DNA of 64,000 nucleotides from a virus (taxonomy: Duplodnaviria > Heunggongvirae > Uroviricota > Caudoviricetes), in the IMG/VR virus record IMGVR_UViG_3300031555_010707, one strand, 5' to 3'. Below, piece by piece: positions 15,229 to 30,817 of this stretch (within the stretch, counting starts at the first letter, position 1; every line of letters starts with the position of its first letter). The position numbers and the translations under genes are program-made. The notes under the pieces were generated by a model. That model searched no databases. It was not told the DNA's origin and saw nothing but the letters and a program-made list of their open reading frames with translations.

Positions 15229-15699
15229 TCATTCCTTTCTTTCGGTATTCATCAGCATATCCACAGCATATTGTATATGCTTGGTTTCCAAACCCCACCC
15301 ATAGAATGAAGTGTGAACTAAATGTGGAAGATGCACATTCATATCACTATCGTCATCGAGAATGACGTAGGATTCAACGGAAATATCCCTATGGTGATTA
15401 AACCATGCGGAAATATCATCGCCGCGTTCCTTGCCCGTATAGGGTGTATCGGAGTGAATGGACAGCCCGTATTCAGCAAGCTGCTGGACGAGGTGAGCCC
15501 TTGCTTTCGGGATTTTTCTCCATGATGAAGATAGAACAATCGTCGCGCCTGTCGCACTAACGATTTGCTTTAGGCAGGCAATCGCTCGTTTATCCAAGAT
15601 GTCTTCGTAGAAAACGCGGACGCCTTGCTCGCTAAACATCTTTTCGGCAAACGAATTACTGTTCAACACACCGTCAACGTCCAGAAAAATCACGCGCAT
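15229..15699 (-). CDS. HAD-superfamily phosphatase
   Basis: MRVIFLDVDGVLNS is HAD motif I. GGAGGG sits 6 nt upstream of the ATG at 15699. Confidence 0.5.
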   Translation of the reverse strand: MRVIFLDVDGVLNSNSFAEKMFSEQGVRVFYEDILDKRAIACLKQIVSATGATIVLSSSWRKIPKARAHLVQQLAEYGLSIHSDTPYTGKERGDDISAWFNHHRDISVESYVILDDDSDMNVHLPHLVHTSFYGWGLETKHIQYAVDMLMNTERKE

Positions 15700-15890
15700 G
15701 TCTGACCCTCCACACATTCCTGCGGCAATGTGAAAGTCGGTTTCCAGATAGCGACAATCGTTCTGGATTTCTGATCCACAAAACCGATGCCACCATCGTA
15801 GAGTGTCATATTCAAGTCATGCTTAGCACACGCAGCCTGAATATCTGCTACCAAAGCGGAGACTTTTTTCTGGATTTCAGTTGTTTCCAT
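15690..15890 (-). CDS. Hypothetical small protein
   Basis: ORF. Confidence 0.25.
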   Translation of the reverse strand: METTEIQKKVSALVADIQAACAKHDLNMTLYDGGIGFVDQKSRTIVAIWKPTFTLPQECVEGQTCA

Positions 15891-15903: not shown

Positions 15904-16674
15904 TCAATCGATGGTTTTCAGACCCGGATCGTAACTTGGCGGCATCGAGAGCTTGAAAAGGTTGGCTCGATGCAAACGGTCAATTCGGTTCTTTGTAATC
16001 TGGCTTTCGCATTTACCAGTACGGATATAGGTATCCAGCTCGGCATAGGTAAAACCAAGGTTATCCTCGTCCGTCTTTCCACAGAGTCCGTCACTGGGAA
16101 CCTTGTCTACCAGCTCAGGCGGCAAACCGCATTCGTAGCCAACCGCCTTTACCTCTTCAACAGTGAGCTTCGCCAGAGGGCAGAAGTCTCCGGCGCTATC
16201 ACCGTAGCGTGTAGAGTAACCTACCCAATCCTCCGACAGATTGCAAGTGTTGGCTACTCGGCCATTCAAGGACTGAGACACAGCATACAGCGTAGCCATT
16301 CGGATTCGAGGAGGCAGATTCACCATTGTCTGGTCACTCAACGTGATACCAGCGCCTCCAATAGCATTGAGTACGTCACTCACAGCCAAGGTGACAGGCA
16401 CCATAAAGTGCTTAATTCCCAGGTGTTCGCAGAGTTTGAAGCTATCATCGATGTCCAGCTGCGCCAGATTTGGCATCAGGACGCCAATGACCCGCTCTCC
16501 TCCGAGGGCTTCCTTGCACAAAGTAGCAACGATATTGCTATCCTTGCCTCCAGAAATGCCGATGACAGCATTGCAGTCTTTGCCATTGGATTCAAACCAC
16601 TCTCGAATCCACTGTACAATTTCTTCTTTTATTTTCTTGGCATCAAACTTGTTCATGTTTACCCCATACTTCAT
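15904..16674 (-). CDS. nadE: NH3-dependent NAD+ synthetase
   Basis: PP-loop VIGISGGKDS. Collinear with B. subtilis NadE: PRIRMATLY, TRYGDSAGDFCPLAKLT and LGFTYAELDTYIRTGK match. Confidence 0.7.
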   Translation of the reverse strand: MKYGVNMNKFDAKKIKEEIVQWIREWFESNGKDCNAVIGISGGKDSNIVATLCKEALGGERVIGVLMPNLAQLDIDDSFKLCEHLGIKHFMVPVTLAVSDVLNAIGGAGITLSDQTMVNLPPRIRMATLYAVSQSLNGRVANTCNLSEDWVGYSTRYGDSAGDFCPLAKLTVEEVKAVGYECGLPPELVDKVPSDGLCGKTDEDNLGFTYAELDTYIRTGKCESQITKNRIDRLHRANLFKLSMPPSYDPGLKTID

Positions 16675-17467
16675 CGATAATGTAGTCTCTTGCTTCAGAG
16701 AAAATCGGAATATTCAGATCAGGTGTCCACTTGGATCGTTGTGCGCCATTTACTTCATAGCTGCGTTTGACAATGCAAAGACCGGCCTTTTGATTTATGG
16801 GCAGACTGTGCCAATCAAACCCTTTCTCTTTCATCATCTGCAGCATCTGAGCGCAGTTCTTCTTGTGTAGTTCTTTATGCGAATACATCGATCTTGCACA
16901 AGACTCGACACTATTCCGCACGGCATCTTGCTGGCGCCAAATAAAGTAATTGACGACCTCATGCTCCGGCAACAGGAAAGCTCTGCTATCGAACATAGCC
17001 TGATCGATATTGCGGAAGTAGGTGTTATAGTCCTTCTTGAACTTTTCCTGCTTCTCTTCTGACATAAACTCAAGAGACAAAGGCAAATAGTGATGCTGCT
17101 GAACGTAAGACCGGTAGCTGCGATTGAATGCACGAGTTGCAATTGACGCCGTAACACTGGCAATCTTTTGCAAATTGTTGCCGAACCATGCCTGCGTGGT
17201 AAGCTCATCGTCGTTCCTGAGAACGAGCGAAATCTCGTCGGACTGTGTATAAGCGAGCTTACAGCCCTCCACATTACGGCAAAGTTCAATGGCAACTTCC
17301 TTCATGGGCTCAGAAACAGCGCTGTCAAATGGACGCTTGAACCCCCTGGTAAAAGTATGGAATGCCTTTCCGTCCACACGAACGATGACCGGCATTCTTC
17401 TCGGAAGATAGAATCTATAGGCGTTTTCGTATTCTTTCATACGGTCGCCCAAGGAATCACGAGACAT
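16643..17467 (-). CDS. Thg1-like protein (tRNA-His guanylyltransferase family, 3'-5' nucleotidyltransferase)
   Basis: RMKEYENAYRFYLPRRMPVIVRVDGKAFHTF...AYTQSDEISLVL is a Thg1 signature. AAGGAGG lies 5 nt upstream of the ATG at 17467. Confidence 0.65.
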   Translation of the reverse strand: MSRDSLGDRMKEYENAYRFYLPRRMPVIVRVDGKAFHTFTRGFKRPFDSAVSEPMKEVAIELCRNVEGCKLAYTQSDEISLVLRNDDELTTQAWFGNNLQKIASVTASIATRAFNRSYRSYVQQHHYLPLSLEFMSEEKQEKFKKDYNTYFRNIDQAMFDSRAFLLPEHEVVNYFIWRQQDAVRNSVESCARSMYSHKELHKKNCAQMLQMMKEKGFDWHSLPINQKAGLCIVKRSYEVNGAQRSKWTPDLNIPIFSEARDYIIDEVWGKHEQV

Positions 17468-18509: not shown

Positions 18510-19004
18510 TTACATCTTGGGCAATTCGTAGAGCGTTACGTCCAAGCCCCCGAGTTCTTCTTCGATGATTGTATAGACGGTATCCCAGTTGCCGCCTCCT
18601 CGGTCGCAGCCAATTCGATAAGGCAATGCGATTTGAGGTTCTTTGCCCGATTTTTGCCGGATGGCATCAGCAAAAATGCTCAGCTGAGCCAAGCAACTTC
18701 TGAATGCCCCATAGTCCGTATATTGCTTGCCATCATATCCGTACTTATTCTGAGCGAACATATTGGCGATATAAATCCGCTTGCCATCCGGAAGATTCTC
18801 GGATGATAGCTGCGTGTTTCCCAGCAAGCTCTCTGTCTTTCCTTTGACACTTCGGCAAGCACTTTGATAGTTGGCGTATGCGCCTGGAAATAACATCCGA
18901 ACCTGCTTGGCAACGCCGGAACCCATCACTCCCTGGCAATTTACCTGATGAGCAATGATGTCGGCATTACTTGCGAATAAATCTCCGATTTTATGTTGTA
19001 TCAT
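18510..19004 (-). CDS. Macro-domain protein (ADP-ribose binding or processing)
   Basis: IGDLFASNADIIAHQVNCQGVMGSGVAKQV is a MacroD/YmdB-like motif. Confidence 0.6.
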   Translation of the reverse strand: MIQHKIGDLFASNADIIAHQVNCQGVMGSGVAKQVRMLFPGAYANYQSACRSVKGKTESLLGNTQLSSENLPDGKRIYIANMFAQNKYGYDGKQYTDYGAFRSCLAQLSIFADAIRQKSGKEPQIALPYRIGCDRGGGNWDTVYTIIEEELGGLDVTLYELPKM

Positions 19005-19158: not shown

Positions 19159-19590
19159 TCACTTCTTTCCGTCTGCGATAATAGAGTTTTCTCCGGCATC
19201 GCAAGCTCGCTTGTAGTAGACGCGACCTTCCATTTTGCTTTCCGCCTTCCTCATCGCTCCAAGACACTGCTTTAGCTGATTGACCGCATTGGTTTGAGAC
19301 GCAATCCAGTTCATCAATGGTGTCAGCGTATCAATAATGTCTTTGGCGACTCGGCGGCGTTGGCGAATTTTTCGAAGCTCCACCGCCGCATGAGCACGTT
19401 CATGATACGTCCACTCGCAAAGTTCAATTTCATGAAGCAGATCCTGCGTCTTTTTATCGCAGTAATCCAATTCATTTTGAGCCATTTTGAGGGACTCATT
19501 AGCCAAAGAAAACATATTCAGTGTCTCTTCAATGGACTGGCTCGTTACTTGAGGAGTGAGCTTATCCAGATCGTCAAGCACTGCGTTCAT
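19159..19590 (-). CDS. Hypothetical protein
   Basis: AGGAGG 7 nt upstream of ATG 19590; overlaps the Pnkp stop by 17 nt. Confidence 0.35.
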   Translation of the reverse strand: MNAVLDDLDKLTPQVTSQSIEETLNMFSLANESLKMAQNELDYCDKKTQDLLHEIELCEWTYHERAHAAVELRKIRQRRRVAKDIIDTLTPLMNWIASQTNAVNQLKQCLGAMRKAESKMEGRVYYKRACDAGENSIIADGKK

Positions 19591-21781
19591 TGACTGCCTC
19601 CTGATAATACTTGTTTCGGAGTTCGACAATGTTGGTAGAAGGATTACTCTCGGCATACTTTCTGACGAAAGCATAGAAATAATTCGTCAACGGAGTTTGC
19701 AAAGCGCCGGTGTTACGGAACTGTCCATAGTTGAATACGCTTTGGGCTACTCCGCGAAGAAGTTTCCATGTGGCGTAATAATCCGTCTTGATCTTGAGCA
19801 TGAATCCGACAGCATCTCTGATGACATATCCTTCAAAGGGAATGGCATCGGGACGGGCAAGAAGATTCTGAGAATTCTGATACAGGGAAAGGAATTCTTC
19901 CCAGTTATTGATGACACAGGCTCTCTTTTTCACTTCCAGTCCAAGCTCTTCTGCGGCACTGACGAGTTGAACATAGCTGCAAGCCGAGAATTCCAGTTGG
20001 TTTTCCACCATGTCCAGAAGATAGAGATGCTTCTCTCGGTATTCAATGATGTGTGGATCATTGACGGGATCAACCGCCTCGAACAGGAGCGTTACATCAT
20101 GTTTCTTCAGGTACTCTGTCAGCCTCTGCTTCTGCTCATCAGTGAACATGGAACGGAAAAGTTCTGCCATCGCACCGTCAACAGAAGACTTGGTGGTCAT
20201 GAACAAGGAGCCCGTAGACTGGTCATAAGAAACCAGCCCGAGGAAACCATTCTCTTTTTCGAAGACTTCAACAGGGAACACGAGTTTCTTCTGAAGCACA
20301 GACAGCTTGGTGTTCTGTCTTTCGTTGACTGCGAAGAATTTTTCATATCCACGAGCCACAACCTTCATGTTGGTGGTGTCGATATACAAACCGCGAGCAC
20401 GAACTGTAAGCGAATTCCACTTCTTATCCATAAAGGCTGCCCGAGTGAAGTTGAAGGAAGAAATATGACCGAAGGACTTTTCATGAATGAGGGGACTCTG
20501 CCGCATCCTCGCAACGAGATCGGAAATGATCTCTCTTTCAGTAGATGCAACGGGTTGCGCATCTTTGGGTGGCTGAACAACGGGCTGTTCGGCGGAGGGA
20601 TAATTAACCACCTTCCAGCCTTCTTCAGACAGGACGACGGTTCTCAGCTCTCCTCCACGTTCTACAGCGCCTTCGAGACAGAAACAATGTTCCGAAACAT
20701 GAGTCGGCAAACCGGAAACATTGCGATGACCGAACACCTGATAATACATGGGCGGAGCGGATTTTTCAAAGGACTCAACACATTCCTCCATCTGCTCGTA
20801 AAAGCCAACGCCGGAAATCATCTGGCAGGCAGGAACAAAGTCGAGATGGCCGAGAGAAGACCAGTCTGAAATACCTCCATGAGTGCAGAGTACAGTGCGA
20901 CCACGATATGTATAATAGGAACACTGTCGGATACGGCGGTAGAATTTTCTTATTTCTACCATGGAAATGCCGGCTGCATCAAGCTGGAATCCAGTCTTCG
21001 AATTGAACTCCCTTGAAGCAGATTGGCGACCGTTCGCCCACTCCCACAGATGAACCTCGTGATTTCCTTCAAGGAAACACACATTGGGGCGTTCTGAAAT
21101 ATCCATGAGGAACTGAAGAACCTTCGGAGAATCCGGGCCGCGATCAGCATAATCTCCGCAGAAAATATAGGCGGTCTTATCATCGATGCCATCCACAGGA
21201 TTTTCCCCGAACACCTTCTGGAGAGTGGAGTAGCATCCGTGAATATCACCGATGTGTACGACCTTATCATATTCGCTCAAATCGAAAGGAGTAGTAAATA
21301 TCTGCTCCCAATCATCGACGGTGATTCTCTTGATTCCGGCTGGAATATTCTGTGTCTGGAAACGTGAGTATACCTTTTCAATGTAGTCCTGTGGAACGAT
21401 TTTGAGCGGAGGCCGCTGGGCGTTACGGCGGAGGGTTTCCTCCAGAGGAATATCCGTCATGTCCAGGCAATAGATCCGATAGCGGTATTGATGCGCCAAT
21501 TCTTTGTAGCGCGTCATTTCGCTCGTCTTGGAATTGCAGGCATCGATAATCGTGAAATCACCGCGCTGCATCCTGCGTTCAAGCATGGCAAACAAGGTAT
21601 CCCAGACAATTCTATCGTTCTTCTGGGATATGACGGGCTTACCTTGTGGATCAAGTGCCGGGGAGGCAAAAAGGGAACGAATCTTATCAGACGAAAGTGC
21701 ATGGTCAGACAGGCCGTTCTTCTCAATCCAAGTGGATTTGCCGCAACCTGGAGCACCGCGCATCAAAATGAGAATTCGCAA
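19574..21781 (-). CDS. pnkp: Trifunctional RNA repair enzyme: polynucleotide 5'-kinase, metallophosphoesterase and ATP-dependent ligase-like (Clostridium thermocellum Pnkp-type architecture)
   Basis: N-terminal P-loop GAPGCGKST. Central GDIHGC, GDYADRG and GNHE calcineurin motifs. C-terminal EKENGFLG KxDG-like adenylyltransferase motif; 735 aa. Confidence 0.75.
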   Translation of the reverse strand: MRILILMRGAPGCGKSTWIEKNGLSDHALSSDKIRSLFASPALDPQGKPVISQKNDRIVWDTLFAMLERRMQRGDFTIIDACNSKTSEMTRYKELAHQYRYRIYCLDMTDIPLEETLRRNAQRPPLKIVPQDYIEKVYSRFQTQNIPAGIKRITVDDWEQIFTTPFDLSEYDKVVHIGDIHGCYSTLQKVFGENPVDGIDDKTAYIFCGDYADRGPDSPKVLQFLMDISERPNVCFLEGNHEVHLWEWANGRQSASREFNSKTGFQLDAAGISMVEIRKFYRRIRQCSYYTYRGRTVLCTHGGISDWSSLGHLDFVPACQMISGVGFYEQMEECVESFEKSAPPMYYQVFGHRNVSGLPTHVSEHCFCLEGAVERGGELRTVVLSEEGWKVVNYPSAEQPVVQPPKDAQPVASTEREIISDLVARMRQSPLIHEKSFGHISSFNFTRAAFMDKKWNSLTVRARGLYIDTTNMKVVARGYEKFFAVNERQNTKLSVLQKKLVFPVEVFEKENGFLGLVSYDQSTGSLFMTTKSSVDGAMAELFRSMFTDEQKQRLTEYLKKHDVTLLFEAVDPVNDPHIIEYREKHLYLLDMVENQLEFSACSYVQLVSAAEELGLEVKKRACVINNWEEFLSLYQNSQNLLARPDAIPFEGYVIRDAVGFMLKIKTDYYATWKLLRGVAQSVFNYGQFRNTGALQTPLTNYFYAFVRKYAESNPSTNIVELRNKYYQEAVNERSA

Positions 21782-23133
21782 GAGAACACCTCCTTGTTTT
21801 CATTCAAGTAATTGACAATATGGACACGTTCATTTTTCAAAGAGCCATCAATTACAGCATCAAGAACCTTGTTCAGAACAAAGCCGACTCTTTTCCCTTC
21901 CGCTATATTGAGCAACTCCATTACATCTTTTCCGCTGATTTCCAAATCTTTCAGACTAAAGCATTGGTTTTGCTCGACAATCTCATAGGCAATAGCTGCC
22001 AGAGATACGCAGCGTTCAATTCGAGACTGCTGAGTGCTCTCCTTATGAGCGAGAATATCAGCCATTCTGATTTCAACCAGTCTTGAAAATTGGAGTTCAC
22101 CGATTTTGTTCAACCATCGGCGCACTGTCTTCGGGGTAGGCTCAATAACGGCATCGTGGAACAACACAAGTTCGAGTACGTCATGCTTGGTTTTGTTGTC
22201 AAAACGCAATCTGTCAAGAACCTTTTCGGCAAGATCTCGACTGTATACTCCGTGACCATAGAAGTGCCCTCCGTTTTCATCCGTGGTATAGCAACATGGC
22301 TTGCCAATATCATGAAGGAATAACGAGAGCTTTATAACAATGTCATTTAATCCGCAGTTTTCTACGGCATGACAAATGTGATCGTATACGGTGTACTCGT
22401 GATACCTGTTATTTTGGTCAAATCCAATGCAGGGACTCATTTCTGGAATGATGACAGAGATAACATCGCTATACTCCAGTAAGATTTGAAGAACTCCTCG
22501 ACCACAGAGCATCTTGCATAGCTCGGTCTGAATTCTCTCTGCTGCAATGTTCAGGAGCTTTTCTTTATTCCTATGGATTGCCTGAGATGTTTTCTCTTCA
22601 ATGGCAAAACCATATGTAGAAGCAAAGCGCATTGCTCTCAGGATTCGAAGCGCATCTTCTCCGAATCTGTCATCTGGATTTCCAACGCATGAAATGATTC
22701 TTCTATTCAGGTCGTCCTGACCATGAAAAGGATCGATAATTCTTTCTCCGTCATAGGCCATTGCATTAACAGTGAAATCACGGCGTGCTAAATCCAGCTC
22801 TATGTTTTTCACGAATTCTACACTATCAGGATGTCGGCTATCAGAATAAAGTCCGTCAATTCTGAAAGTCGTAACCTCATACTGCTCAGAATCCCCGAGA
22901 TTAACCGTGATTGTTCCGTGCTGTAAGCCTGTATCAATCGTCTTGATATTGCGTTTTGCGAAGAAAGCCTTCATTTCAAGAGGAGTGGCTGATGTGCAAA
23001 TATCCCAGTCTTTCGGTTCAAGGTCAAGCAAGCTGTCTCGCACGCATCCACCAACGACATAGGCATCAAACCCGGCCTTGCGCAAATCCTGTATGATGAA
23101 ATTGGCGCCGTGCGGGATTTGGATATTACGCAT
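21763..23133 (-). CDS. cca: CCA-adding tRNA nucleotidyltransferase with a C-terminal HD domain
   Basis: GGCVRDSLLDLEPKDWDICTS is the class II head domain; HDIGK is the HD motif. Confidence 0.75.
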   Translation of the reverse strand: MRNIQIPHGANFIIQDLRKAGFDAYVVGGCVRDSLLDLEPKDWDICTSATPLEMKAFFAKRNIKTIDTGLQHGTITVNLGDSEQYEVTTFRIDGLYSDSRHPDSVEFVKNIELDLARRDFTVNAMAYDGERIIDPFHGQDDLNRRIISCVGNPDDRFGEDALRILRAMRFASTYGFAIEEKTSQAIHRNKEKLLNIAAERIQTELCKMLCGRGVLQILLEYSDVISVIIPEMSPCIGFDQNNRYHEYTVYDHICHAVENCGLNDIVIKLSLFLHDIGKPCCYTTDENGGHFYGHGVYSRDLAEKVLDRLRFDNKTKHDVLELVLFHDAVIEPTPKTVRRWLNKIGELQFSRLVEIRMADILAHKESTQQSRIERCVSLAAIAYEIVEQNQCFSLKDLEISGKDVMELLNIAEGKRVGFVLNKVLDAVIDGSLKNERVHIVNYLNENKEVFSCEFSF

Positions 23134-24148
23134 CGATAGCTCTCCTGTTCACTTCGATAACAAATTCCTCGACCTTCTTCATGTCCGGATGCTTTGGGAG
23201 GTTGGTATTTGCCTTCGCATATTCCAGACGCTTCTCGTATTCGCTCACCATCTCAAAGAATTCAGGCGCATATGAACCGTCTTCGCGCTGAAATTTACCG
23301 TTTCGGATACTGAGCAGAAAATCTCTGTCGTTGTATCGATAGGTGTTGATTTCGCCTTTCTCCAAGATGTCCAGACACAGAAGATAGAGACGAATCAGGT
23401 GCATGGCGTGCTTGTTGAGATGATCGTCGTCCTTCTTATGATTGCGATGGTGCAACTTCTCGTAATCTCGAAGTACACTGGACAGGGTGTTAAGCATGAT
23501 GCTGAACTCTCTGGCAGGATACTTTTCAAGGTGAATGTTGCAGAACACTTCCTTATCAAGATCGTCACGAGAACTCTCGTCGGTAAAGAGGCTGATACAA
23601 CCCTGATCGAAATCGGAATACTTGGAAGCGAATTCCCGAAGGGCTCGTTCCAGTGCCCCTCTGATGTGTTCCTCTTTCTTTGCCTGCGGCAACCTGTCTC
23701 TGGCGAGCGCGTTTTCCAAACGGCGAAGCTGCTGAGTAGCATATCCTCCGAACGAACTGACCGCTCTTTGCGAAAGGAACAGGCTTGCGTTGTCGATCAT
23801 CATGCGGCCTGCATCGGAAACATAAAAATAATGCTCCGGTTTGCAGCCGAGCATTTCAATCGTATTGGGATTGCAGTTCAGAAGCAAGCTGACCAGTTTG
23901 TTGAAGCCATAGATGGTAGTGTCGGTCTGCGTGTTTACGACCTGTTCAAAATTTGAGAGGCCGAGAAGATCACTCTTGCTGTTCATTGCACAGCCTCTTA
24001 CATCTACATCCGATGTTTCAATGTTGGTTCCATAGGCATGACTTCCGCCAAGCGTAAGGAACATAAGTCGGCCTGCGAGGTGAGGATTGGTTCGCAAGAA
24101 GTCATATTCCTCTCCGTTTACCATTTCTTTGATTTGCTCAAGAGTCAT
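23126..24148 (-). CDS. Pol-beta-superfamily nucleotidyltransferase, RlaP-like (RNA-ligase-associated NTase)
   Basis: LGGSHAYGTNIETSDVDVRG is a GS-YG-SDxDxRG signature. Confidence 0.5.
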   Translation of the reverse strand: MTLEQIKEMVNGEEYDFLRTNPHLAGRLMFLTLGGSHAYGTNIETSDVDVRGCAMNSKSDLLGLSNFEQVVNTQTDTTIYGFNKLVSLLLNCNPNTIEMLGCKPEHYFYVSDAGRMMIDNASLFLSQRAVSSFGGYATQQLRRLENALARDRLPQAKKEEHIRGALERALREFASKYSDFDQGCISLFTDESSRDDLDKEVFCNIHLEKYPAREFSIMLNTLSSVLRDYEKLHHRNHKKDDDHLNKHAMHLIRLYLLCLDILEKGEINTYRYNDRDFLLSIRNGKFQREDGSYAPEFFEMVSEYEKRLEYAKANTNLPKHPDMKKVEEFVIEVNRRAIDA

Positions 24149-24160: not shown

Positions 24161-24595
24161 TTACCACATCTCATTGCCGATTTTGACACGAGGAATATTC
24201 CGTTGAATAGCTGCAAGCTCGTTCATCAGTAATCCGATCTTCTGGAAAGGGACACAGACAGTGCCCTCTCCTACTTTCATAGTCAGAATGTCTTCGGCAC
24301 AATCCAGAGAATACTCGGCCAAATCTCCCATAAGAGAAACATTGCGGCTCAGAACCGCAAGACATGCTTCCGGTTCCTCTTTTTCATGAATGGGCGCTGC
24401 GTTCATCGGCGCAGCAAAATTGCGAACGGCTGGTTTGCGCAGATTGGAAGGCTGTTTGCCAATCACTCGAAGCACCGTCTGATAGGAAACATCAAGGGCT
24501 TTGGCAATTTCCTGGTTGCTCATTCCATCTTCACGCATGTGGAGCAGTTCGCCAGGGGATACTTCACGCATTAAGCTCATATGCGCTACCTCCAT
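24161..24595 (-). CDS. HTH-domain regulator-like small protein
   Basis: GMSNQEIAKALDVSYQTVLRVIG helix-turn-helix. Confidence 0.4.
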   Translation of the reverse strand: MEVAHMSLMREVSPGELLHMREDGMSNQEIAKALDVSYQTVLRVIGKQPSNLRKPAVRNFAAPMNAAPIHEKEEPEACLAVLSRNVSLMGDLAEYSLDCAEDILTMKVGEGTVCVPFQKIGLLMNELAAIQRNIPRVKIGNEMW

Positions 24596-24605: not shown

Positions 24606-26099
24606 TCAGAAATTGCCGAACCACAAGATGTTGCGAATATCCGACAGAGAATACTCTTTCAGCATCTTGCCATCGCGGAAAACAGGAATCAGAAGATTCA
24701 TGGGGTCGTCGTTGTGTTCAGCAAAGGTCAGGCCATCAACGCAGGAAAAATCCTTTCCATCGAAATGCACGGCGCAGCATCCTCGCTGAGATTTCTTGAA
24801 GTGCGCGTTATCCGTCTTGGGATTTTTGAAAATCATGATGGGGGTTCCATTCTCGTCTTCTGCATAAGTTGCCTTAATGGCAATGCCAAAGGTATCACGA
24901 GTAAATGGATCGAAGTGACGGACACCGTTCTGGTCATAATGTTCAAGGCACTGCATTGAGAAAGAGCCGACGCCAAGAGAAACATTATTACATGCAAAAC
25001 CATTCTGCGTCAGGATTTCATAGATCTTTTCGCAGCGTTCCGGTGTAATGGAATCACCGTAAATGGCTTTGACGTGAGGATCAAGAACCTTATAGCCCTT
25101 GGAATTGACCGTACCACCAAACGTTTCCCAAAGATGGAAGACAGTCTGGGTAACAATCTCAACAGGATCACCGCTGTCTCCGCGAACCAGAAGGCATCCA
25201 TCATGATTCATGATCTCATCCTTCAGCTGAGGAAGAATGTTATCCACCAGATTCCAGTAATCATAAGAATCGGATACCATCGAGAAAGAATGATGAGGAT
25301 AGATTTCCGTAAGCAGTCGGCGAACGAAAGTAATTTCGTCTCCATCGACAGCGTAATTTGAACACATTACACTGTGTTCGGTAGAAATCGCGCCGAATGC
25401 AACGGGTTCCTTGGTACAATCGCAGTTGTAATACTTCTCAAGCCATGGAAGAGTCGGAACGGTTGCAGTATTCAGGAACGAAAGGCAGAAACCAGCGCTG
25501 GACATTACCGCACTTTCGATACTCTCCTGACCTCTCATGGAGAAATCACCAAGAGCTTTGGCACGAGGAAAAGAATCATCGACGGTCTTATCGTAATACT
25601 TATTGACGATGTTTCGATACATAACACCAACGTTTGCACTTACCATAGCGTGCCAAAGCGTGGCAGAGATCGCTGATTCAATGGTATTGACCAGCCATGC
25701 AAACTTAGGATGAGTATTGGAAATCTCGAACATAGGAACCTTGATGTTCACACGGCAACCTTCGGGCAGTGCCCGAATCTCAAGAGGCAAATAGCCCAGA
25801 TCGTAAAGCTCCTCGATCTTTTTGAGATTGTAGGAATTCTTTCCGAGGCCGTTGTCAACGATGCGAGCATATTCTGCCAACACCTCATCCTTCGGACGAG
25901 AGAAAAAGAAATCATCAAAGCATTCGATGAGATACGTTTTGATGAATGCCTGCAGGCCAAACATAACGAGCTTATTTTGACCTTCCAGGCGGGACATCCT
26001 GGGCGTAAAATACGATACCAGCTTCGTGACATTCTTAGGGTACATGTCGGAATGTACCACCTTGTACCAGTCACACAGCAAAAGCGGATTAAGTTTCAT
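24606..26099 (-). CDS. nadV: Nicotinamide phosphoribosyltransferase family protein (NadV/NAMPT-like; could be the Namat of a NARP1-type pair)
   Basis: The N-terminus LLCDWYKVVH resembles the NAMPT DSYK motif; 497 aa. Confidence 0.7.
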   Translation of the reverse strand: MKLNPLLLCDWYKVVHSDMYPKNVTKLVSYFTPRMSRLEGQNKLVMFGLQAFIKTYLIECFDDFFFSRPKDEVLAEYARIVDNGLGKNSYNLKKIEELYDLGYLPLEIRALPEGCRVNIKVPMFEISNTHPKFAWLVNTIESAISATLWHAMVSANVGVMYRNIVNKYYDKTVDDSFPRAKALGDFSMRGQESIESAVMSSAGFCLSFLNTATVPTLPWLEKYYNCDCTKEPVAFGAISTEHSVMCSNYAVDGDEITFVRRLLTEIYPHHSFSMVSDSYDYWNLVDNILPQLKDEIMNHDGCLLVRGDSGDPVEIVTQTVFHLWETFGGTVNSKGYKVLDPHVKAIYGDSITPERCEKIYEILTQNGFACNNVSLGVGSFSMQCLEHYDQNGVRHFDPFTRDTFGIAIKATYAEDENGTPIMIFKNPKTDNAHFKKSQRGCCAVHFDGKDFSCVDGLTFAEHNDDPMNLLIPVFRDGKMLKEYSLSDIRNILWFGNF

Positions 26100-26112
26100 A
26101 TTTCCCTTCCTT

Positions 26113-26922
26113 TCATTTGTTCAGGGGGAAAACGGTGATCTTCTCGTGTTCTTTGTGGAAGATACTGTCCGTGGTATAGACATGATCCACAAAATCCGTC
26201 GTCAGCAAATCACCCTCAAAGATTGCATGTTCGCAGTGGGAACAGAAAACCGAAACGCTTTTCGCGCCAAGTTCTTTAAGGGCTTTTGCGGAATGAAAAA
26301 ACGTGCCGCCGCGACAACAGATGTCATCCACGATCAGCACGTTCTTGCCCTTGATGTCGGCATTACAAACAACATCGAGGCCGGTAATCTTTCCAGTTTC
26401 CCAGCAGCGACGTTTAATGCCGAATCCGTATGGAGTTTTAATCATATCAGAATAGCGCTTCATAGCGCCTTCATCCGGGTAGAACAGAAGCAAATCGGGA
26501 TCATCCATATTTCCCATCGCCTTGCGAATATAAGGCTCTGGGGACAGGATCTTGCAGTTGTTGATGAGCGCAGTTGCAACATTGGAATGAGGATCGAGGA
26601 TATACACCGCCTTAAAGCCCAGCATGTTGATAAAGTCGGCAAAATACTTCAGCGTAAAGACTTCATAATCATGATGCGTTCTGTCCATTCTGGCATTCGG
26701 ACAATACGGAAGAACGAGCGAGACGCCCTTAAAAGCGGAATGCTGCCAAAGATGACGGACAATGTAGTAAAGCGCTGTCATTTCATCTTCGCTCTCATAA
26801 TGCCAGCGGATTACTGCCTCGCCTCCATTGTAGGCAACATCGGGGCTGGAAACTCCAAACGCGAAAGTTCCGTCTGGAAACCGGCTGTCCAGCTGGATGC
26901 GGTAATTGTTCAGCCAAATCAT
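26113..26922 (-). CDS. PRPP-synthetase-like phosphoribosyl pyrophosphokinase (Prs; or an Adps-type ADP-ribose pyrophosphate synthetase)
   Basis: PRPP-binding loop VLIVDDICCRGGT. Shorter than canonical Prs at 269 aa. Confidence 0.6.
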   Translation of the reverse strand: MIWLNNYRIQLDSRFPDGTFAFGVSSPDVAYNGGEAVIRWHYESEDEMTALYYIVRHLWQHSAFKGVSLVLPYCPNARMDRTHHDYEVFTLKYFADFINMLGFKAVYILDPHSNVATALINNCKILSPEPYIRKAMGNMDDPDLLLFYPDEGAMKRYSDMIKTPYGFGIKRRCWETGKITGLDVVCNADIKGKNVLIVDDICCRGGTFFHSAKALKELGAKSVSVFCSHCEHAIFEGDLLTTDFVDHVYTTDSIFHKEHEKITVFPLNK

Positions 26923-26937
26923 AGCTAACCCCTCCGT

Positions 26938-27567
26938 TTAGCCGTTGATGATCTTGATGTTACAGGGAGCCATAGCGTCGAGCGCCGTTTTGTGAGATTC
27001 GGGAGATACACAAGCGCAGCAAGCTGCGTCCACGATGATCTCTGCCTCGGGAAGCACAGCGCGAAGCAGCATGGCGTTGCTCAGCACGCAAATGCCCGTA
27101 CAGACTCCGCAAAGAACGATACGGTCATACTGTTCATCGCTTGCTACATTAGAGAGAACAACGCTTCCGAAGGTGGGCTTATTGAGCATGGCGAAAAAAT
27201 GACCAGAGCCAGCACAGTTCATCTTCGAATAGGATTTTTGTACGTCCTCGTTGATCTGCCAACCATCACTGTTCTGAATACAGTGAGGAACCGGGAGCAT
27301 TTTGCCTTCAGCCGTGTCCATGTAGTTGTCTTGGTGCGTGTCTCTGGTCATGATGATGTCGCCCTGCCAGCCTTCGATTTTCTCGCAGACCTTGGGCACG
27401 ATTGCCTTGGCCTCGTCTGTGCCAAGGACACCTGTTACGAAGTCGTTTTGCATGTCAACGACTACAAGAAGTTCCTTCAAATTCCTTTCCTCCTTGATAT
27501 GTTTTAGATGATGTTCGTCATCTATGACCTCGGCTTTTCTTGTCGAAACTGCCAGGGTCATGCCCAA
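26938..27567 (-). CDS. pncA: Nicotinamidase / isochorismatase-family hydrolase
   Basis: LVVVDMQNDF has the catalytic Asp. PHC is a metal-binding motif. CGVCTGICV carries the catalytic Cys. Confidence 0.6.
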   Translation of the reverse strand: MGMTLAVSTRKAEVIDDEHHLKHIKEERNLKELLVVVDMQNDFVTGVLGTDEAKAIVPKVCEKIEGWQGDIIMTRDTHQDNYMDTAEGKMLPVPHCIQNSDGWQINEDVQKSYSKMNCAGSGHFFAMLNKPTFGSVVLSNVASDEQYDRIVLCGVCTGICVLSNAMLLRAVLPEAEIIVDAACCACVSPESHKTALDAMAPCNIKIING

Positions 27568-28173: not shown

Positions 28174-28264
28174 TGGCGGAGAGAGTGGGATTCGAACCCA
28201 CGGACGGCGCGGAGCCGTCGGCGGTTTTCAAGACCGCTGCCTTAAGCCGCTCGGCCATCTCTCC
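28174..28264 (-). tRNA. tRNA-Ser(TGA), type II, CCA encoded
   Basis: Cloverleaf folded by hand; anticodon loop CTTGAAA. Confidence 0.75.
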
Positions 28265-28272
28265 ATTACGGG

Positions 28273-28479
28273 TCAGTTTTTTGTAAAAGGTATAACCACT
28301 TCTTTAAGAGCTTGAATTCTATCGAAACGGTCATTGCGGCCATCAACCCAGCGTTCTTTACCACAGCGTTTACAGCGATATTTCCGCATTGAGAATCGAA
28401 CATTGCCGTCAGTAGATTCAAACCAACTTACTTTAACGAACTTATGTCTGCAGAATAATGAGATAAGCCATTTTTTCAT
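28273..28479 (-). CDS. Small zinc-ribbon protein
   Basis: CKRCGK pair. Confidence 0.3.
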   Translation of the reverse strand: MKKWLISLFCRHKFVKVSWFESTDGNVRFSMRKYRCKRCGKERWVDGRNDRFDRIQALKEVVIPFTKN

Positions 28480-28490
28480 ACTGCGTCTCC

Positions 28491-28790
28491 TTAGAACTTT
28501 CCAAGTATAACGGCCTTATCGGATATGTATTCGCCGTTAATGGTATTGAAGTATTGACCGATCGGGCGAACAAGATAGACGATTGGATTTCCTCCGTACT
28601 TAATACAGGCTTTCTTGGCAAATTTCTGAGCAGTAGCAAGAGACGTTGTGAAGAAAACCTTATCTTCGTACTTCTTCCTCCAATGTTCACGCTTGCAATT
28701 CGTGATGATGGGAGGCAAGAGAATTTTGTGAATTTGGAGAGAATCCGTAGTTCCATGATAGAAAACTTTAGTATTCGCCGGAAAATTCAT
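28491..28790 (-). CDS. Small protein resembling the C-terminal NAD-binding lobe of Tpt1/KptA RNA 2'-phosphotransferase (an ART-fold)
   Basis: VFYHGTTDSLQIHKIL matches the KptA LYHGTASRFLDEIK. GGNPIVYLVRP matches HGSPVILTV. Confidence 0.3.
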   Translation of the reverse strand: MNFPANTKVFYHGTTDSLQIHKILLPPIITNCKREHWRKKYEDKVFFTTSLATAQKFAKKACIKYGGNPIVYLVRPIGQYFNTINGEYISDKAVILGKF

Positions 28791-29046
28791 GTTCAATGAC
28801 CTCGCATCCGTGGGCGGCGTCTTCGATGAGCCCAATCAAAAGAGCTTCTACGTCATCAAGAAGGTTTGCATAGGTACTCCCGTAAAGCCCAACCATATTG
28901 TCCGAATCTCTTTCTTCGTCCTCCGGACTGGGGATACGGACATTATGCTGCTCAAGAATTTCTTCGAACATATCGATAATTCTTGCCGCTTCGTCATGCG
29001 TATAGATGGTCTTTCTATCCGAATCAGATTTGACTATACCCGTCAT
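28768..29046 (-). CDS. Hypothetical acidic protein
   Basis: ORF. Confidence 0.3.
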   Translation of the reverse strand: MTGIVKSDSDRKTIYTHDEAARIIDMFEEILEQHNVRIPSPEDEERDSDNMVGLYGSTYANLLDDVEALLIGLIEDAAHGCEVIEHEFSGEY

Positions 29047-29273
29047 CGTACTCCTCCTTGATGATTTCTTGTCCTCTGCATCCTCTTTCGAGTCAAGCGG
29101 CTTGGAACGCTTCTTGCTGCATTACAAGCGGCAGACAGCCCAGTCCTACTATCTGCCGGATGTCCAGCTGTACTGGTTGGAGGGAACGCGATACTCCTGG
29201 CAAGCGCGAGCCTGTCTCCATCAAGCTCGTAAATGCGCTTTCATGCCCTGTCAATAACCAAGTGTATCGCAGC

Positions 29274-29352
29274 AGTGGTCTTCCTGGCGGGACTCGAACC
29301 CGCGACTCCTTGATTAAAAGTCAAGTGCTCTACCAACTGAGCTACAGGAAGG
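29274..29352 (-). tRNA. tRNA-Lys(TTT)
   Basis: Anticodon loop CTTTTAA; CCA encoded. Confidence 0.75.
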
Positions 29353-29355
29353 TAA

Positions 29356-29430
29356 TGGCGGCTCGTCAGGGATTCGAACCCCGAACCTATCGGTTAACAG
29401 CCGAGTGCTCTACCTTTGAGCTAACGAGCC
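29356..29430 (-). tRNA. tRNA-Asn(GTT)
   Basis: Anticodon loop CTGTTAA; CCA encoded. Confidence 0.75.
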
Positions 29431-29468
29431 ATGATGCCACCGCCATTGTCGTAGAGGTGGCAAACAGA

Positions 29469-29660
29469 TTAGAATAACCGCTTTCCGCAAGTCGGGCAGC
29501 GGTAGATGGTGAAATTTCCGATCTTATAATCGGTTCCATTGGTTTTGCAGTTGATCGGAAGATATTCGTTATCCCATTTCAGGCGATGGATTTCTCTTCC
29601 GTTCTTATCGACTTCGGCAACATATGGAACATAGCCTTTCGGATTGCATACACTGCACAT
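29469..29660 (-). CDS. Small zinc-ribbon protein
   Basis: CxxC...CxxC. Confidence 0.3.
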   Translation of the reverse strand: MCSVCNPKGYVPYVAEVDKNGREIHRLKWDNEYLPINCKTNGTDYKIGNFTIYRCPTCGKRLF

Positions 29661-29663
29661 AAA

Positions 29664-29951
29664 TCACGCACCTTCTTCCAGAAGATCGTCTTCAGTCATT
29701 TCATCCATGTCGCTTCTCATCGCCTGAAGTTTTCTCTGATCCGAAATCTTGTTGCTGGACATAGAATTCGGGCTACCTCCCCATGACTTGCGGGGATTGC
29801 ACATACAGCAGGAGCAGTGAATCTTGTTCTTGGAATATTGATGAAGATTGTCATACCAGTCTCCACCCATAATGTTCCTGACGATGGAACGCTTGCGTTT
29901 TGCATGTTTCCAATCCATCTTTCTGGAACGACCTCTGTTATTCGGCTTCAT
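29664..29951 (-). CDS. Hypothetical basic Cys-containing small protein
   Basis: AAGGAG 7 nt upstream of ATG 29951. Confidence 0.3.
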   Translation of the reverse strand: MKPNNRGRSRKMDWKHAKRKRSIVRNIMGGDWYDNLHQYSKNKIHCSCCMCNPRKSWGGSPNSMSSNKISDQRKLQAMRSDMDEMTEDDLLEEGA

Positions 29952-29973
29952 GCTATCACTCCTTGCTAAAGAA

Positions 29974-30066
29974 TGGCGGAAGGTGTGAGATTCGAACTCA
30001 CGGTGCCCGAATTTCAGGCACGCCTGATTAGCAATCAGGTGCATTAAGCCACTCTGCCAACCTTCC
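29974..30066 (-). tRNA. tRNA-Ser(GCT), type II
   Basis: Anticodon loop TTGCTAA; long variable arm. Confidence 0.75.
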
Positions 30067-30069
30067 AGA

Positions 30070-30144
30070 TGGAGCTCCCATTCGGATTTGAACCGAAAAC
30101 CAATCGCTTACGATGCGATTGCTCTGCCGTTGAGCTATAGGAGC
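30070..30144 (-). tRNA. tRNA-Thr(CGT)
   Basis: Anticodon loop ATCGTAA. Confidence 0.7.
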
Positions 30145-30411
30145 ACTTGTGTCTACAATTTCAATCGAACTTCCGATTTCTTCTCCAGCGCCTGCACCAA
30201 CAGAAATCGCAATCCAGATACCCGACACGATGCCCGTCGATTTTGCACACCGAAGAACCATGCGCCACATGTTCTCGATTGCCACAACTTCCGCAGCAGC
30301 GCCCTTCTCTTACGTCGTCTGAAGCGTATACTTTCAGGCCGTTGTTGCTATTGCGAGTATCATAAGAAAGACATATGAGCAACGAGAACACCTCCTAAAA
30401 TGATTGATGAA

Positions 30412-30488
30412 ATGGAGCCGGATATGGGACTCGAACCCATGACCCTGCGCTTACAAAACGCACGCTCTGGCCATCTGAGCTAATCCGG
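30412..30488 (-). tRNA. tRNA-Thr(TGT)
   Basis: Anticodon loop TTTGTAA. Confidence 0.7.
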
Positions 30489-30577
30489 CATGTGTGGTGG
30501 CCTCTGCTGGTAACGATCCAGCCTCCGTAGATTTTCAGTCTACTGCTTTCACCATGTAAGCTAAAAGGCCAAGTAAA

Positions 30578-30654
30578 TGGTGCCGAGGGTGGGACTTGAA
30601 CCCACAAATCGCAGATTTTGAGGCTGCTTCCTATGCCATTTCGGATACCCCGGC
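30578..30654 (-). tRNA. tRNA of uncertain identity: type I structure, canonical register gives anticodon CAA, discriminator A73
   Basis: Acceptor, D and T arms are good. The anticodon stem GCAGC/TCTGC has a loop-proximal C-U mismatch; loop CTCAAAA. Confidence 0.55.
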
Positions 30655-30817
30655 TTGTGTGTTTCCCGCTTAGATTGAACATTGTATCCTTTGGGTCACG
30701 GCTACTCAGATCAAGCCGAACATTTGCAACTGTCCAGTTCCAATGCTTTTCAGCGGACATTTTCATTCTCTGTGAGGAATCCACAACGCTCACATCAGCA
30801 GGGAGCGACCCTGCATT

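What the first reader, a model, noticed from the sequence alone, without database searches (positions are those of the whole stretch)
19574..24148. Pnkp-type trifunctional RNA repair enzyme without Hen1, flanked by a CCA-adding enzyme and a RlaP-like NTase
The 735-aa protein reproduces the kinase, metallophosphoesterase and ligase architecture of bacterial Pnkp. In bacteria Pnkp pairs with the Hen1 methyltransferase so that the repaired junction becomes immune to re-cleavage. No Hen1 is encoded in this window. The repair cluster has a CCA-adding enzyme with an HD domain and a RlaP-family nucleotidyltransferase (GS-YG-SDxDxRG) instead. This looks like a phage counter-measure to anticodon nucleases such as PrrC, RloC or colicin-like tRNases. 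It has a composition not described for phages: heal and seal, plus 3'-end rebuilding, without methyl marking.
Basis: partly seen in the sequence, partly recalled or inferred. Interest (0 to 1): 0.7.

Follow-up and report, generated by a model that had tools for sequence, protein, structure and literature searches.

The report
Phage tRNA heal-and-seal repair operon
An SPbeta-like phage of gut Firmicutes carries a tight operon whose 735-residue protein fuses an RNA kinase, a 2',3'-phosphatase and an RNA ligase beside two enzymes that rebuild lost tRNA nucleotides; the protein belongs to a large phage family already catalogued, not to a Hen1-less bacterial Pnkp, so this is a rich but largely ordinary case of tRNA repair.

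Summary
ORF 19574-21781 (-) encodes a 735-aa P-loop kinase, binuclear metallophosphoesterase and lysine-adenylyltransferase ligase. All catalytic residues are invariant in 32 homologues. It is translationally coupled to a RlaP nucleotidyltransferase and a CCA-adding enzyme. No methyltransferase is found in the 64 kb.

The protein matches PHROG 8238 ("RNA ligase") end to end. It has full-length homologues in 113 deposited phage genomes (Staphylococcus Sep1-like, SPbeta-like) and in several hundred 50%-identity clusters. RlaP, CCA-adding and Thg1 enzymes beside phage RNA ligases were already described (Iyer et al. 2021), so the composition is not new.

The operon sits in a larger island: Thg1-like enzyme, SAK-type HAD phosphatase, second RNA ligase, cREC, Macro, five NAD+ salvage genes and 16 tRNAs.

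One less ordinary point: the ligase module is Trl1-LIG (Rnl6)-like through its C-domain, including counterparts of the 2'-phosphate-binding triad.

The parts
19574..21781 (-). Trifunctional RNA repair enzyme ('TriF'), 735 aa: 5'-kinase, 2',3'-phosphoesterase and ATP-dependent RNA ligase
   Evidence: Pfam. PHROG 8238 matches end to end, E 4e-200. Invariant catalytic residues. AF2 model with pLDDT 89. Fold matches per domain.
21302..21781 (-). TriF residues 1-160: P-loop polynucleotide 5'-kinase module
   Evidence: The best solved relative is the C. thermocellum Pnkp kinase (4gp7, E 6e-6). T4 Pnk and Pnkp1 also match. Foldseek to 4jt2 gives target-normalised TM 0.76.
20597..21274 (-). TriF residues 170-395: binuclear metallophosphoesterase (lambda-phosphatase / CthPnkp type)
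   Evidence: DxH, GDxxDRG, GNHE, HGG and GH motifs are invariant. Foldseek matches lambda phosphatase 1g5b and CthPnkp phosphatase 4j6o. TIGR04075 aligns here.
19577..20536 (-). TriF residues 416-735: RNA ligase module, Trl1-LIG (Rnl6)-like including the C-terminal helical subdomain
21763..23133 (-). Class II CCA-adding tRNA nucleotidyltransferase with an HD region
   Evidence: Pfam PolyA_pol, PolyA_pol_RNAbd, tRNA_NucTran2_2 and HD. NF009814 300 bits against a cutoff of 290. Bacillus-type CCA enzyme 1miv at E 5e-55. The Shine-Dalgarno sequence lies inside the 3' end of the RlaP gene.
23126..24148 (-). RlaP-family Pol-beta nucleotidyltransferase
   Evidence: PF10127 65.9 bits against a cutoff of 23. 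PHROG 388 at E 1e-54. The RlaP-CCA-TriF order recurs in IMG/VR locus L082.
24161..24595 (-). Small HTH protein, first gene of the tight cluster
   Evidence: Weak HTH_38/HTH_7 matches below the Pfam cutoffs. It lies 12 nt upstream of RlaP.
19159..19590 (-). 143-aa protein of unknown function, translationally coupled to TriF
   Evidence: AGGAGG precedes the ATG inside the 3' end of TriF. PHROG 2717, unknown function. Called as 143 aa in metagenome records.
16643..17467 (-). Thg1-like 3'-5' nucleotidyltransferase (tRNA 5'-end repair)
   Evidence: PF04446 at E 5.5e-31. PHROG 4717 at E 2.6e-91.
15229..15717 (-). HAD phosphatase of the 'Swiss-army-knife' RNA repair type
   Evidence: PF18143 HAD_SAK_2 at E 2.4e-24.
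18510..19004 (-). Macro domain protein (DarG-like)
   Evidence: PF01661 is weak. NF048014 at E 9e-18. PHROG 335 at E 2e-45.
7473..8549 (-). Second RNA ligase: OB domain plus a PF09414 nucleotidyltransferase (DRB0094 / Rnl5-like)
   Evidence: Pfam PHA02142 and RNA_ligase. TIGR02306 146.7 bits against a cutoff of 151.
24606..27567 (-). NAD+ salvage block: NAMPT-like phosphoribosyltransferase, PRPP-synthetase-like protein and isochorismatase/nicotinamidase. NadE (15904-16674) and CinA/PncC (6904-7452) lie elsewhere in the window.
   Evidence: Pfam. NF006629 454 bits against a cutoff of 405.
28174..35759 (-). Array of 16 tRNA genes plus one doubtful call. All 16 encode their 3'-CCA.
   Evidence: ARAGORN. 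3' ends read directly from the sequence.
36459..36857 (-). cREC (cyclic-phosphate-processing receiver) domain protein
   Evidence: PF20274 at E 2e-13.

Best explanation
The 735-aa protein is a self-sufficient 'heal-and-seal' RNA repair enzyme of a large family found in phages and prophages.

1. The central Mn-type phosphoesterase opens and removes the cyclic phosphate, giving a 2',3'-diol. This is inferred from the intact His181 and Arg214, counterparts of CthPnkp His189 and Arg237, which are needed for the monoesterase step.
2. The N-terminal P-loop kinase phosphorylates the 5'-OH. This is inferred from conserved catalytic residues and fold.
3. The C-terminal ligase adenylylates Lys509, transfers AMP to the 5'-phosphate and seals the break. 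This is inferred from motifs I, III, IV and V and from the Trl1/Rnl1-like fold.

The ligase carries its own complete C-terminal domain, so no Hen1-type activator is needed.

In this phage the enzyme is translationally coupled to two further enzymes. RlaP adds one or two nucleotides to damaged 3'-OH ends, an activity shown for Pseudomonas RlaP in PMC12776372 and inferred here. The CCA-adding enzyme would restore trimmed 3'-CCA ends.

Within about 4 kb further along the same strand lie a Thg1-like 5'-end repair enzyme and an SAK-type HAD phosphatase. The wider window also holds a second ligase, a cREC protein, 16 tRNA genes and an NAD+ salvage set. Together these form a counter-defence island that keeps translation running when tRNA-targeting or NAD+-depleting defences fire.

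Shown here: domain identity, conserved active sites, fold relationships, gene coupling and recurrence of the neighbourhood. Inferred: all enzymatic activities, the substrates and the counter-defence role.
For: - Domains and invariant catalytic residues.
- Confident models and per-domain structural matches.
- PHROG 8238 end-to-end match.
- 113 full-length homologues in deposited phage genomes, usually as a stand-alone gene, which argues for autonomy.
- 615 clusters at E<1e-30 for the ligase module; most of the 150 best-scoring proteins listed are 710-770 aa with the ligase C-terminal.
- Homologues lie in prophage or phage contexts without Hen1.
- Overlapping genes with internal Shine-Dalgarno sites.
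- RlaP-CCA-TriF recurs in the same order in IMG/VR L082. A RlaP-CCA pair lies next to TriF in L095. RlaP is next to TriF in the Blautia MAG L016. Thg1 lies near TriF in 12 of 80 viral loci.
- All 16 phage tRNA genes already encode CCA, so the CCA enzyme is not needed for their maturation.
- Other RNA repair and NAD+ genes fill the window.
- Literature on phage RNA repair sets (PMC7824862) and on RlaP activity (PMC12776372).
Against: - No biochemical data exist for any member of this family in the literature I could search.
- The CCA and RlaP neighbours are rare among homologues: CCA in 2 of 80 and RlaP in 5 of 80 viral loci. The trio is therefore an accessory combination, not an obligate system.
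- The ligase keeps counterparts of the Trl1 2'-phosphate-binding triad, which leaves open a pathway other than the T4-like one.
- The target nuclease and the host are unknown.
- The phage itself encodes a PemK/MazF-like RNase, so the damage being repaired need not be host-inflicted.
Confidence: 0.7

Rival explanations
1. One reading: a member of the bacterial Pnkp family that has lost its Hen1 partner, making a new phage-specific repair composition that lacks the methyl mark.
For: The domain order is the same, kinase then metallophosphoesterase then ligase. The kinase's best solved relative is the CthPnkp kinase. TIGR04075 is the top NCBIfam hit by E-value. The window has no Hen1.
Confidence: 0.04
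2. Trl1-like pathway. The phosphoesterase stops at a 3'-OH,2'-phosphate end and the Rnl6-like ligase requires or prefers that 2'-phosphate. The sealed junction then carries a 2'-phosphate. This would block re-cleavage by transesterifying RNases, acting as a functional analogue of Hen1 methylation, until a host Tpt1/KptA removes it using NAD+.
For: The ligase aligns with Trl1-LIG through the C-domain. Invariant H577, K673 and R676 map onto CthLIG His227, Arg334 and Arg337, the triad that enforces 2'-phosphate use (PMC11404444; PMC12440814). NAD+ salvage genes and a Macro domain gene lie nearby.
Against: The phosphoesterase keeps His181 and Arg214, whose CthPnkp counterparts are needed for the monoesterase step; H189D or R237 changes are what limit CthPnkp to a single step (PMC1920235, PMC3675462). 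No Tpt1/KptA homologue was found in the window or in 109 loci around homologues, using phmmer at E<=1 with E. coli KptA as the only query. By ungapped continuation of the alignment past its end point, T4 Rnl1, which needs no 2'-phosphate, has His250 and Lys253 at the two post-motif-V positions, so basic residues there are not diagnostic. One Arg is Lys here.
Confidence: 0.12
3. The enzyme serves the phage's own RNA or DNA housekeeping rather than counter-defence. Examples are reversing cuts made by the phage's own PemK/MazF-type RNase, processing phage tRNA transcripts, or healing DNA ends.
For: A PemK-like toxin gene lies within 8-10 kb of TriF homologues in 19 of 80 viral loci and in L001, L011, L012 and L016. 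CthPnkp-type kinase and phosphatase modules also act on DNA ends in vitro (established knowledge; DNA-bound kinase structures such as 4mde appear). The gene lies among replication and recombination genes.
Against: The neighbours are specific to tRNA ends: CCA-adding enzyme, Thg1 and RlaP. The ligase fold is that of the tRNA-directed ligases T4 Rnl1 and Trl1. Phage tRNAs already encode CCA, and ARAGORN reported no introns. The PemK linkage may reflect shared synteny of related phages.
Confidence: 0.12

Closest known systems
Bacterial Pnkp of the Pnkp-Hen1 system (C. thermocellum Pnkp; TIGR04075; Rnl4 ligase clade)
   Same: The N-to-C order of P-loop 5'-kinase, binuclear metallophosphoesterase and ligase is the same. 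The kinase and phosphatase modules are the closest solved relatives or among them. The active-site residue set matches that defined for CthPnkp phosphatase (PMC3675462).
Phage T4 Pnkp + Rnl1 (with the RlaP homologue NrdC.11)
   Different: Here there is one polypeptide instead of two. The 3'-phosphatase is a metallophosphoesterase, not a DxDxT acylphosphatase. The ligase C-domain is not the T4 Rnl1 type; alignments stop after motif V.
Fungal tRNA ligase Trl1, LIG domain (Rnl6 clade)
   Different: The healing modules differ: a Pnkp-type kinase and a metallophosphoesterase instead of a GTP-dependent kinase and a 2H cyclic phosphodiesterase. The domain order is reversed. Arg334 is Lys here. Dependence on a 2'-phosphate is untested and, from the phosphatase type, not expected.
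RNA repair gene sets of jumbo phages (Iyer, Anantharaman, Krishnan, Burroughs, Aravind 2021, PMC7824862; Burroughs and Aravind 2016)
   Same: The toolkit is the same: ATP-dependent RNA ligases with a kinase and phosphatases, RlaP, CCA-adding enzyme, Thg1, SAK-type HAD, cREC, Macro, many tRNAs and NAD+ salvage.
   Different: This phage is SPbeta-like and below the jumbo range (contigs of 147-173 kb), and probably infects gut Clostridia. The phosphatase is of the calcineurin-like type, which that survey called uncommon. The RlaP, CCA and ligase genes form one overlapping operon.

Membership tests
Bacterial Pnkp (Pnkp-Hen1 system, TIGR04075) | N-terminal P-loop polynucleotide 5'-kinase | tested here: met
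   AAA_33 at E 6.5e-18. CthPnk 4gp7 is the best PDB sequence hit. Target-normalised TM 0.76 to 4jt2. The P-loop, D32, R35 and R123 are invariant.
Bacterial Pnkp (Pnkp-Hen1 system, TIGR04075) | Central binuclear metallophosphoesterase with the lambda-phosphatase residue set | tested here: met
   Metallophos at E 2.5e-16. D179, H181, D210, R214, N240, H241, H301 and H352 are invariant. Foldseek matches 4j6o and 1g5b.
Bacterial Pnkp (Pnkp-Hen1 system, TIGR04075) | C-terminal Rnl4-type ligase domain and a whole-protein score above the equivalog cutoff | tested here: not met
Bacterial Pnkp (Pnkp-Hen1 system, TIGR04075) | Adjacent Hen1 methyltransferase gene that completes the ligase | tested here: not met
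   No methyltransferase domain was found in any larger ORF of the 64-kb window, nor among the genes called in the 10 kb to its right. The motif-I regex found none in the window. The rest of the roughly 147-173 kb genome could not be read.
Rnl6 clade (fungal Trl1-LIG type RNA ligase) | Lysine adenylyltransferase core with an Rnl1-like N-terminal subdomain | tested here: met
   Motifs I, III, IV and V and R463, K481 and F482 are invariant and align with CthLIG Arg99, Lys120 and Phe121 (PMC6379707).
Rnl6 clade (fungal Trl1-LIG type RNA ligase) | Distinctive C-terminal helical domain appended to the core; this feature defines the clade | tested here: met
Rnl6 clade (fungal Trl1-LIG type RNA ligase) | His-Arg-Arg triad that binds the terminal 2'-phosphate | tested here: inconclusive
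   H577, K673 and R676 are invariant and align with His227, Arg334 and Arg337, with one Arg replaced by Lys. By ungapped continuation past the end of the alignment, T4 Rnl1 has His250 and Lys253 at the latter two positions, so the pattern is not diagnostic.
Rnl6 clade (fungal Trl1-LIG type RNA ligase) | Requirement or preference for a 3'-OH,2'-phosphate end | not testable with these tools
   This needs ligation assays with defined RNA ends.
T4 Rnl1 clade | T4 Rnl1-type C-terminal domain, which confers tRNA specificity | tested here: not met
   The profile and hhalign alignments to T4 Rnl1 end just after motif V. TIGR02308 scores 42.6 bits against a cutoff of 242.
RlaP (PF10127) nucleotidyltransferases | Pfam model above the gathering score, with the Pol-beta GS...DxD signature | tested here: met
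   65.9 bits against 23. GGSHAYG...SDVDVRG is read in the translation. PHROG 388 at E 1e-54. No solved relative was found by sequence.
Class II CCA-adding enzyme | Head, neck and body domains scoring above the equivalog cutoff | tested here: met
   NF009814 300 bits against 290. 1miv at E 5e-55, with GGxVRD, DxD, RRD and EDxxR visible in the alignment. The HD domain is marginal, 25.9 bits against 22.
Thg1-like proteins | Thg1 catalytic domain | tested here: met
   PF04446 107.6 bits against 29.2. PHROG 4717 at E 2.6e-91.

The most novel reading that the evidence does not exclude
The ligase module shows that the 'fungal' Rnl6 (Trl1-LIG) clade has a large bacterial and phage branch fused to Pnkp-type healing domains. 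If the conserved His-Lys-Arg counterpart of the Trl1 triad really binds a 2'-phosphate, these enzymes would seal breaks through a 2'-phosphate junction. That would mark the repaired site against re-cleavage without Hen1. It would also give bacterial Tpt1/KptA enzymes, whose natural substrates are unknown, a source of 2'-phosphate RNA.
Probability: 0.12. Interest if true: 0.75.

Novelty: new member of a known kind. Interest (0 to 1): 0.35.

Why it matters
The window is a compact, well-resolved example of how a temperate-type phage of gut Firmicutes guards translation. Genes for repair of broken anticodon loops, lost nucleotides, 3'-CCA ends and 5' ends sit beside replacement tRNAs and NAD+ regeneration.

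Its practical value is twofold.

First, it corrects an annotation trap. A kinase-metallophosphoesterase-ligase protein is not automatically a Pnkp that needs Hen1.

Second, it points to an abundant family that is uncharacterised in the literature I could search: PHROG 8238, present in Staphylococcus Sep1-like and Bacillus SPbeta-like phages that can be manipulated. Its ligase is the nearest prokaryotic or viral relative of the fungal tRNA ligase domain. Biochemistry on one member would settle whether Trl1-type end specificity predates fungi.

Tried and rejected
- A megablast of the 4.6-kb region against 50,697 phage records found nothing. The phage has no close cultured relative.
- Walking the left flank with the window's DnaG and DnaB products failed because those exact proteins are not on record. 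Only 10 kb to the right of the window could be added, so absence of Hen1 from the whole genome is not shown.
- The key comparative paper, Burroughs and Aravind 2016, is not held. I could not check whether this exact architecture is described there.
- The promoter and terminator consensus scan gave no more promoter sites than shuffles, and the terminator hits fell inside ORFs. It was not used.
- RlaP has no solved relative by sequence.
- A search for Tpt1/KptA with the E. coli protein found nothing in the window or in 109 related loci.
- A methyltransferase motif-I regex over 5,631 ORFs hit only one. It is a 223-aa generic class-I methyltransferase directly after the TriF homologue in L024, with no Hen1 family among the 25 NCBIfam hits shown of 39.
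- I considered that the CCA enzyme matures phage tRNAs. I rejected this because all 16 tRNA genes encode CCA.
- I considered the small Arr-like protein (28491-28835) as a Tpt1 substitute. I rejected this on size and because the match is weak and below cutoff.


Full report
**What is there.** The minus strand between 24595 and 19159 carries five tightly packed genes:
- a small HTH protein (24161-24595);
- a RlaP nucleotidyltransferase (23126-24148);
- a CCA-adding enzyme (21763-23133);
- the 735-aa protein of the finding (19574-21781);
- a 143-aa protein of unknown function (19159-19590).

Each of the last three genes starts inside the 3' end of the gene before it. Each has a Shine-Dalgarno sequence there: AGGAGA before the CCA start, AAGGAGG 7 nt before the TTG start of the 735-aa ORF, and AGGAGG before the 143-aa ORF. 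The genes therefore read as one translationally coupled operon.

**The 735-aa protein.** Pfam finds AAA_33 (residues 4-137), Metallophos (173-315) and RNA_lig_T4_1 (462-669), with E-values from 1e-16 to 1e-39. An alignment with 31 homologues of 46-80% identity leaves every expected catalytic residue invariant:
- Kinase: the P-loop with D32, R35 and R123.
- Phosphoesterase: D179, H181, D210, D213, R214, N240, H241, H301 and H352. This is the residue set defined by mutagenesis of C. thermocellum Pnkp (PMC3675462).
- Ligase: motif I K509, motif III E568, motif IV E650-G651 and motif V K663/K665.

**Is it a Pnkp?** Only in its healing half.
- The kinase's best solved relative by sequence is the CthPnkp kinase (4gp7, E 6e-6), followed by T4 Pnk and Pnkp1.
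- The AlphaFold model (pLDDT 89) matches the CthPnk kinase (target-normalised TM 0.76). Its central domain matches lambda phosphatase and the CthPnkp phosphatase.
- The NCBIfam equivalog for bacterial Pnkp, TIGR04075, scores 80.7 bits against a cutoff of 750. It aligns only protein residues 4-305 to model positions 10-324 of 851, so the ligase part of the model finds nothing.
- The ligase region alone gives no sequence match to the Pnkp ligase even at E<10. Its hits are fungal Trl1 ligase domains.
- A profile of the ligase module aligns with C. glabrata and C. thermophilum Trl1-LIG at E 4e-30 and 1.6e-23, right to the C-terminus. T4 Rnl1 aligns only through motif V.

RNA ligase clades are defined by the domain appended to the nucleotidyltransferase core. 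Rnl4 is listed as 'CthPnkpC-Hen1N', meaning that Hen1 completes that ligase (PMC6379707). The ligase here has its own Trl1-like C-domain. Absence of Hen1 is therefore what one expects, not an oddity.

**Hen1.** No methyltransferase domain appears in any larger ORF of the window or among the genes called in the 10 kb to its right. None was seen next to homologues in a Flintibacter prophage or in two related metagenomic phages.

A motif-I regex over 5,631 ORFs from the window and 109 loci around homologues hit one ORF only. It is a generic 223-aa methyltransferase after the homologue in L024, with no Hen1 family among the 25 NCBIfam hits shown of 39. The remaining roughly 85-110 kb of the genome could not be read, so whole-genome absence is not proven.

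**How common is the enzyme?**
- The protein search returned 3,037 relatives, and 119 of the 120 best share all three domains.
- The ligase module alone finds 615 clusters (50% identity) at E<1e-30. Most of the 150 best-scoring proteins listed are 710-770 aa with the ligase at the C-terminus.
- PHROG 8238, annotated 'RNA ligase', matches residues 1-731 to profile positions 1-735 of 737 at E 4e-200.
- tblastn finds 305 deposited phage genomes, 113 of them with full-length matches at 35-42% identity. They include Staphylococcus Sep1/Twort-like myophages (annotated 'RNA ligase' or 'polynucleotide kinase'), Bacillus SPbeta-like phages and an Alicyclobacillus phage. In those examined the gene stands alone.
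- Species-representative genomes with relatives are Lachnospiraceae-type MAGs and isolates.

The family is therefore already catalogued and is clearly phage-associated. I found no biochemical study of it.

**The neighbours.**
- RlaP passes its Pfam threshold. Pseudomonas RlaPs add one or two nucleotides to 3'-OH ends of damaged RNA. They are proposed to restore nucleotides removed by nucleases such as RloC before ligation by 5'-phosphate ligases. T4 NrdC.11 is a RlaP (PMC12776372).
- The CCA enzyme passes the NF009814 cutoff and aligns with Bacillus-type CCA-adding enzymes, with the head motifs intact.
- All 16 confident phage tRNA genes encode their own CCA. The enzyme is therefore more likely a repair function than a maturation function.
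- Among 80 IMG/VR loci with homologues, RlaP lies within 8 kb in 5, CCA in 2, Thg1 in 12 and a PemK-like RNase in 19.
- L082 repeats the exact order RlaP-CCA-TriF, with 46-55% identical proteins. L095 has the RlaP-CCA pair just downstream. A Blautia MAG has RlaP directly upstream.

The trio is thus a recurrent but minority arrangement built on an autonomous core enzyme.

**Wider context.** The operon is embedded in a repair and counter-defence island. Its parts are:
- a Thg1-like enzyme (16643-17467);
- an SAK-type HAD phosphatase (15229-15717);
- a DarG-like Macro domain protein (18510-19004);
- a second, Rnl5/DRB0094-like ligase (7473-8549);
- a cREC protein (36459-36857);
- NAD+ salvage genes: NAMPT, PRPP-synthetase-like, nicotinamidase, NadE and CinA;
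- the tRNA array (28174-35759).

This is the toolkit described for jumbo phages by Iyer et al. 2021 (PMC7824862), which explicitly lists RlaP, CCA-adding and Thg1 enzymes alongside ligases, kinases and phosphatases. The claim that the composition is undescribed for phages is therefore not supported.

The YonO-type RNA polymerase in the window, and the YonV, YonG, YonD and YonB homologues just beyond it, mark the phage as SPbeta-like. The contigs are 147-173 kb.

**Mechanism.** The best-supported model is a T4-like route.
1. The phosphoesterase removes the 2',3'-cyclic phosphate completely. His181 and Arg214 are intact. In CthPnkp the H189D or R237 changes are what stop the reaction at a phosphomonoester (PMC1920235, PMC3675462).
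2. The kinase phosphorylates the 5'-OH.
3. The ligase seals through Lys509-AMP.
4. RlaP, CCA and Thg1 restore lost nucleotides.

All activities are inferred.

**A less ordinary possibility.** Invariant H577, K673 and R676 align with CthLIG His227, Arg334 and Arg337. That triad enforces use of a 2'-phosphate end (PMC11404444, PMC12440814). If it has the same role here, the junction would carry a 2'-phosphate.

Three things argue against this. The phosphatase is of the fully dephosphorylating type. No Tpt1/KptA was found in the window or in 109 related loci. By ungapped continuation past the end of the alignment, T4 Rnl1 also has His and Lys at the two post-motif-V positions. I give this possibility about 12%.

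**Verdict.** It is wrong on family membership and on novelty. The system is a new member of a known kind. The one point worth a specialist's attention is that an abundant phage and bacterial family, uncharacterised in the literature I could search, carries a Trl1-LIG-like ligase fused to Pnkp-like healing domains.

Noticed in passing
window 11144-11581 (-); L001, L011, L012, L016; 19 of 80 IMG/VR loci: A PemK/MazF-like endoribonuclease gene recurs within 8-10 kb of the trifunctional repair gene in many phage and prophage loci. This could be shared synteny, or a damage-and-repair pairing encoded by the phage itself.
   Followed up: partly
window 38488-39630 (-): A reverse transcriptase (RVT_1, E 8.6e-16) lies inside the phage early region. 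A 58% identical copy is in the related locus L012. Its type (retron-like, group II, DGR or other) was not determined.
   Followed up: no
window 55945-58827 (+) and the 10 kb to the right (L013): A YonO-type single-subunit RNA polymerase (PF05183) occurs with YonV, YonG, YonD and YonB homologues, a holin, a lysin and two integrase-family genes. These mark an SPbeta-like phage from a gut or environmental metagenome, on contigs of 147-173 kb.
   Followed up: partly
window 7473-8549 (-) and 6904-7452 (-): A second RNA ligase (PHA02142 OB domain plus PF09414; TIGR02306 146.7 bits against a cutoff of 151) sits next to a CinA/PncC-type NMN deamidase. The phage therefore carries two RNA ligases of different clades.
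   Followed up: partly
window 28491-28835 (-): A small Arr-like ADP-ribosyltransferase candidate contains a 'FYHGT' motif. The match is weak and below cutoff (E 3.5e-4 in Pfam, 1.4e-3 in NCBIfam). It lies at the edge of the tRNA array and is conserved in identical contigs.
   Followed up: no
window 31244-32737 (-) and 36459-36857 (-): A Band-7/flotillin protein lies inside the tRNA array and a cREC (cyclic-phosphate-processing receiver) protein lies just beyond it. The cREC family has been linked to RNA ligases and NAD+/ADP-ribose-processing enzymes in comparative genomic work (PMC7824862).
   Followed up: no
window 34219-34295 (-): ARAGORN calls a 'tRNA-???' with a two-base anticodon. Unlike the 16 other tRNA genes, it does not end in CCA. 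It is probably a degenerate tRNA or a false call.
   Followed up: no
L024 12218-12886 (+): In one MAG contig, labelled uncultured Bacteroides, a 223-aa generic class-I SAM methyltransferase (Methyltransf_25/11) follows the trifunctional gene directly. It is the only methyltransferase motif-I hit among 5,631 ORFs in the window and 109 loci. No Hen1 family appears among the 25 NCBIfam hits shown of 39.
   Followed up: partly
window 40761-41540 (-): A ThiF/E1-like adenylyltransferase (E 2e-26) is preceded by a 250-aa protein with no family match. Its function in the phage is unknown.
   Followed up: no
L011 9531-10004: In a related phage contig whose TriF is 61% identical, a NADAR domain gene overlaps the start of the trifunctional gene, in the place taken by the CCA-adding gene in the window. 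A Thg1 gene lies 2 kb upstream. The slot before the repair gene appears to be exchangeable.
   Followed up: no
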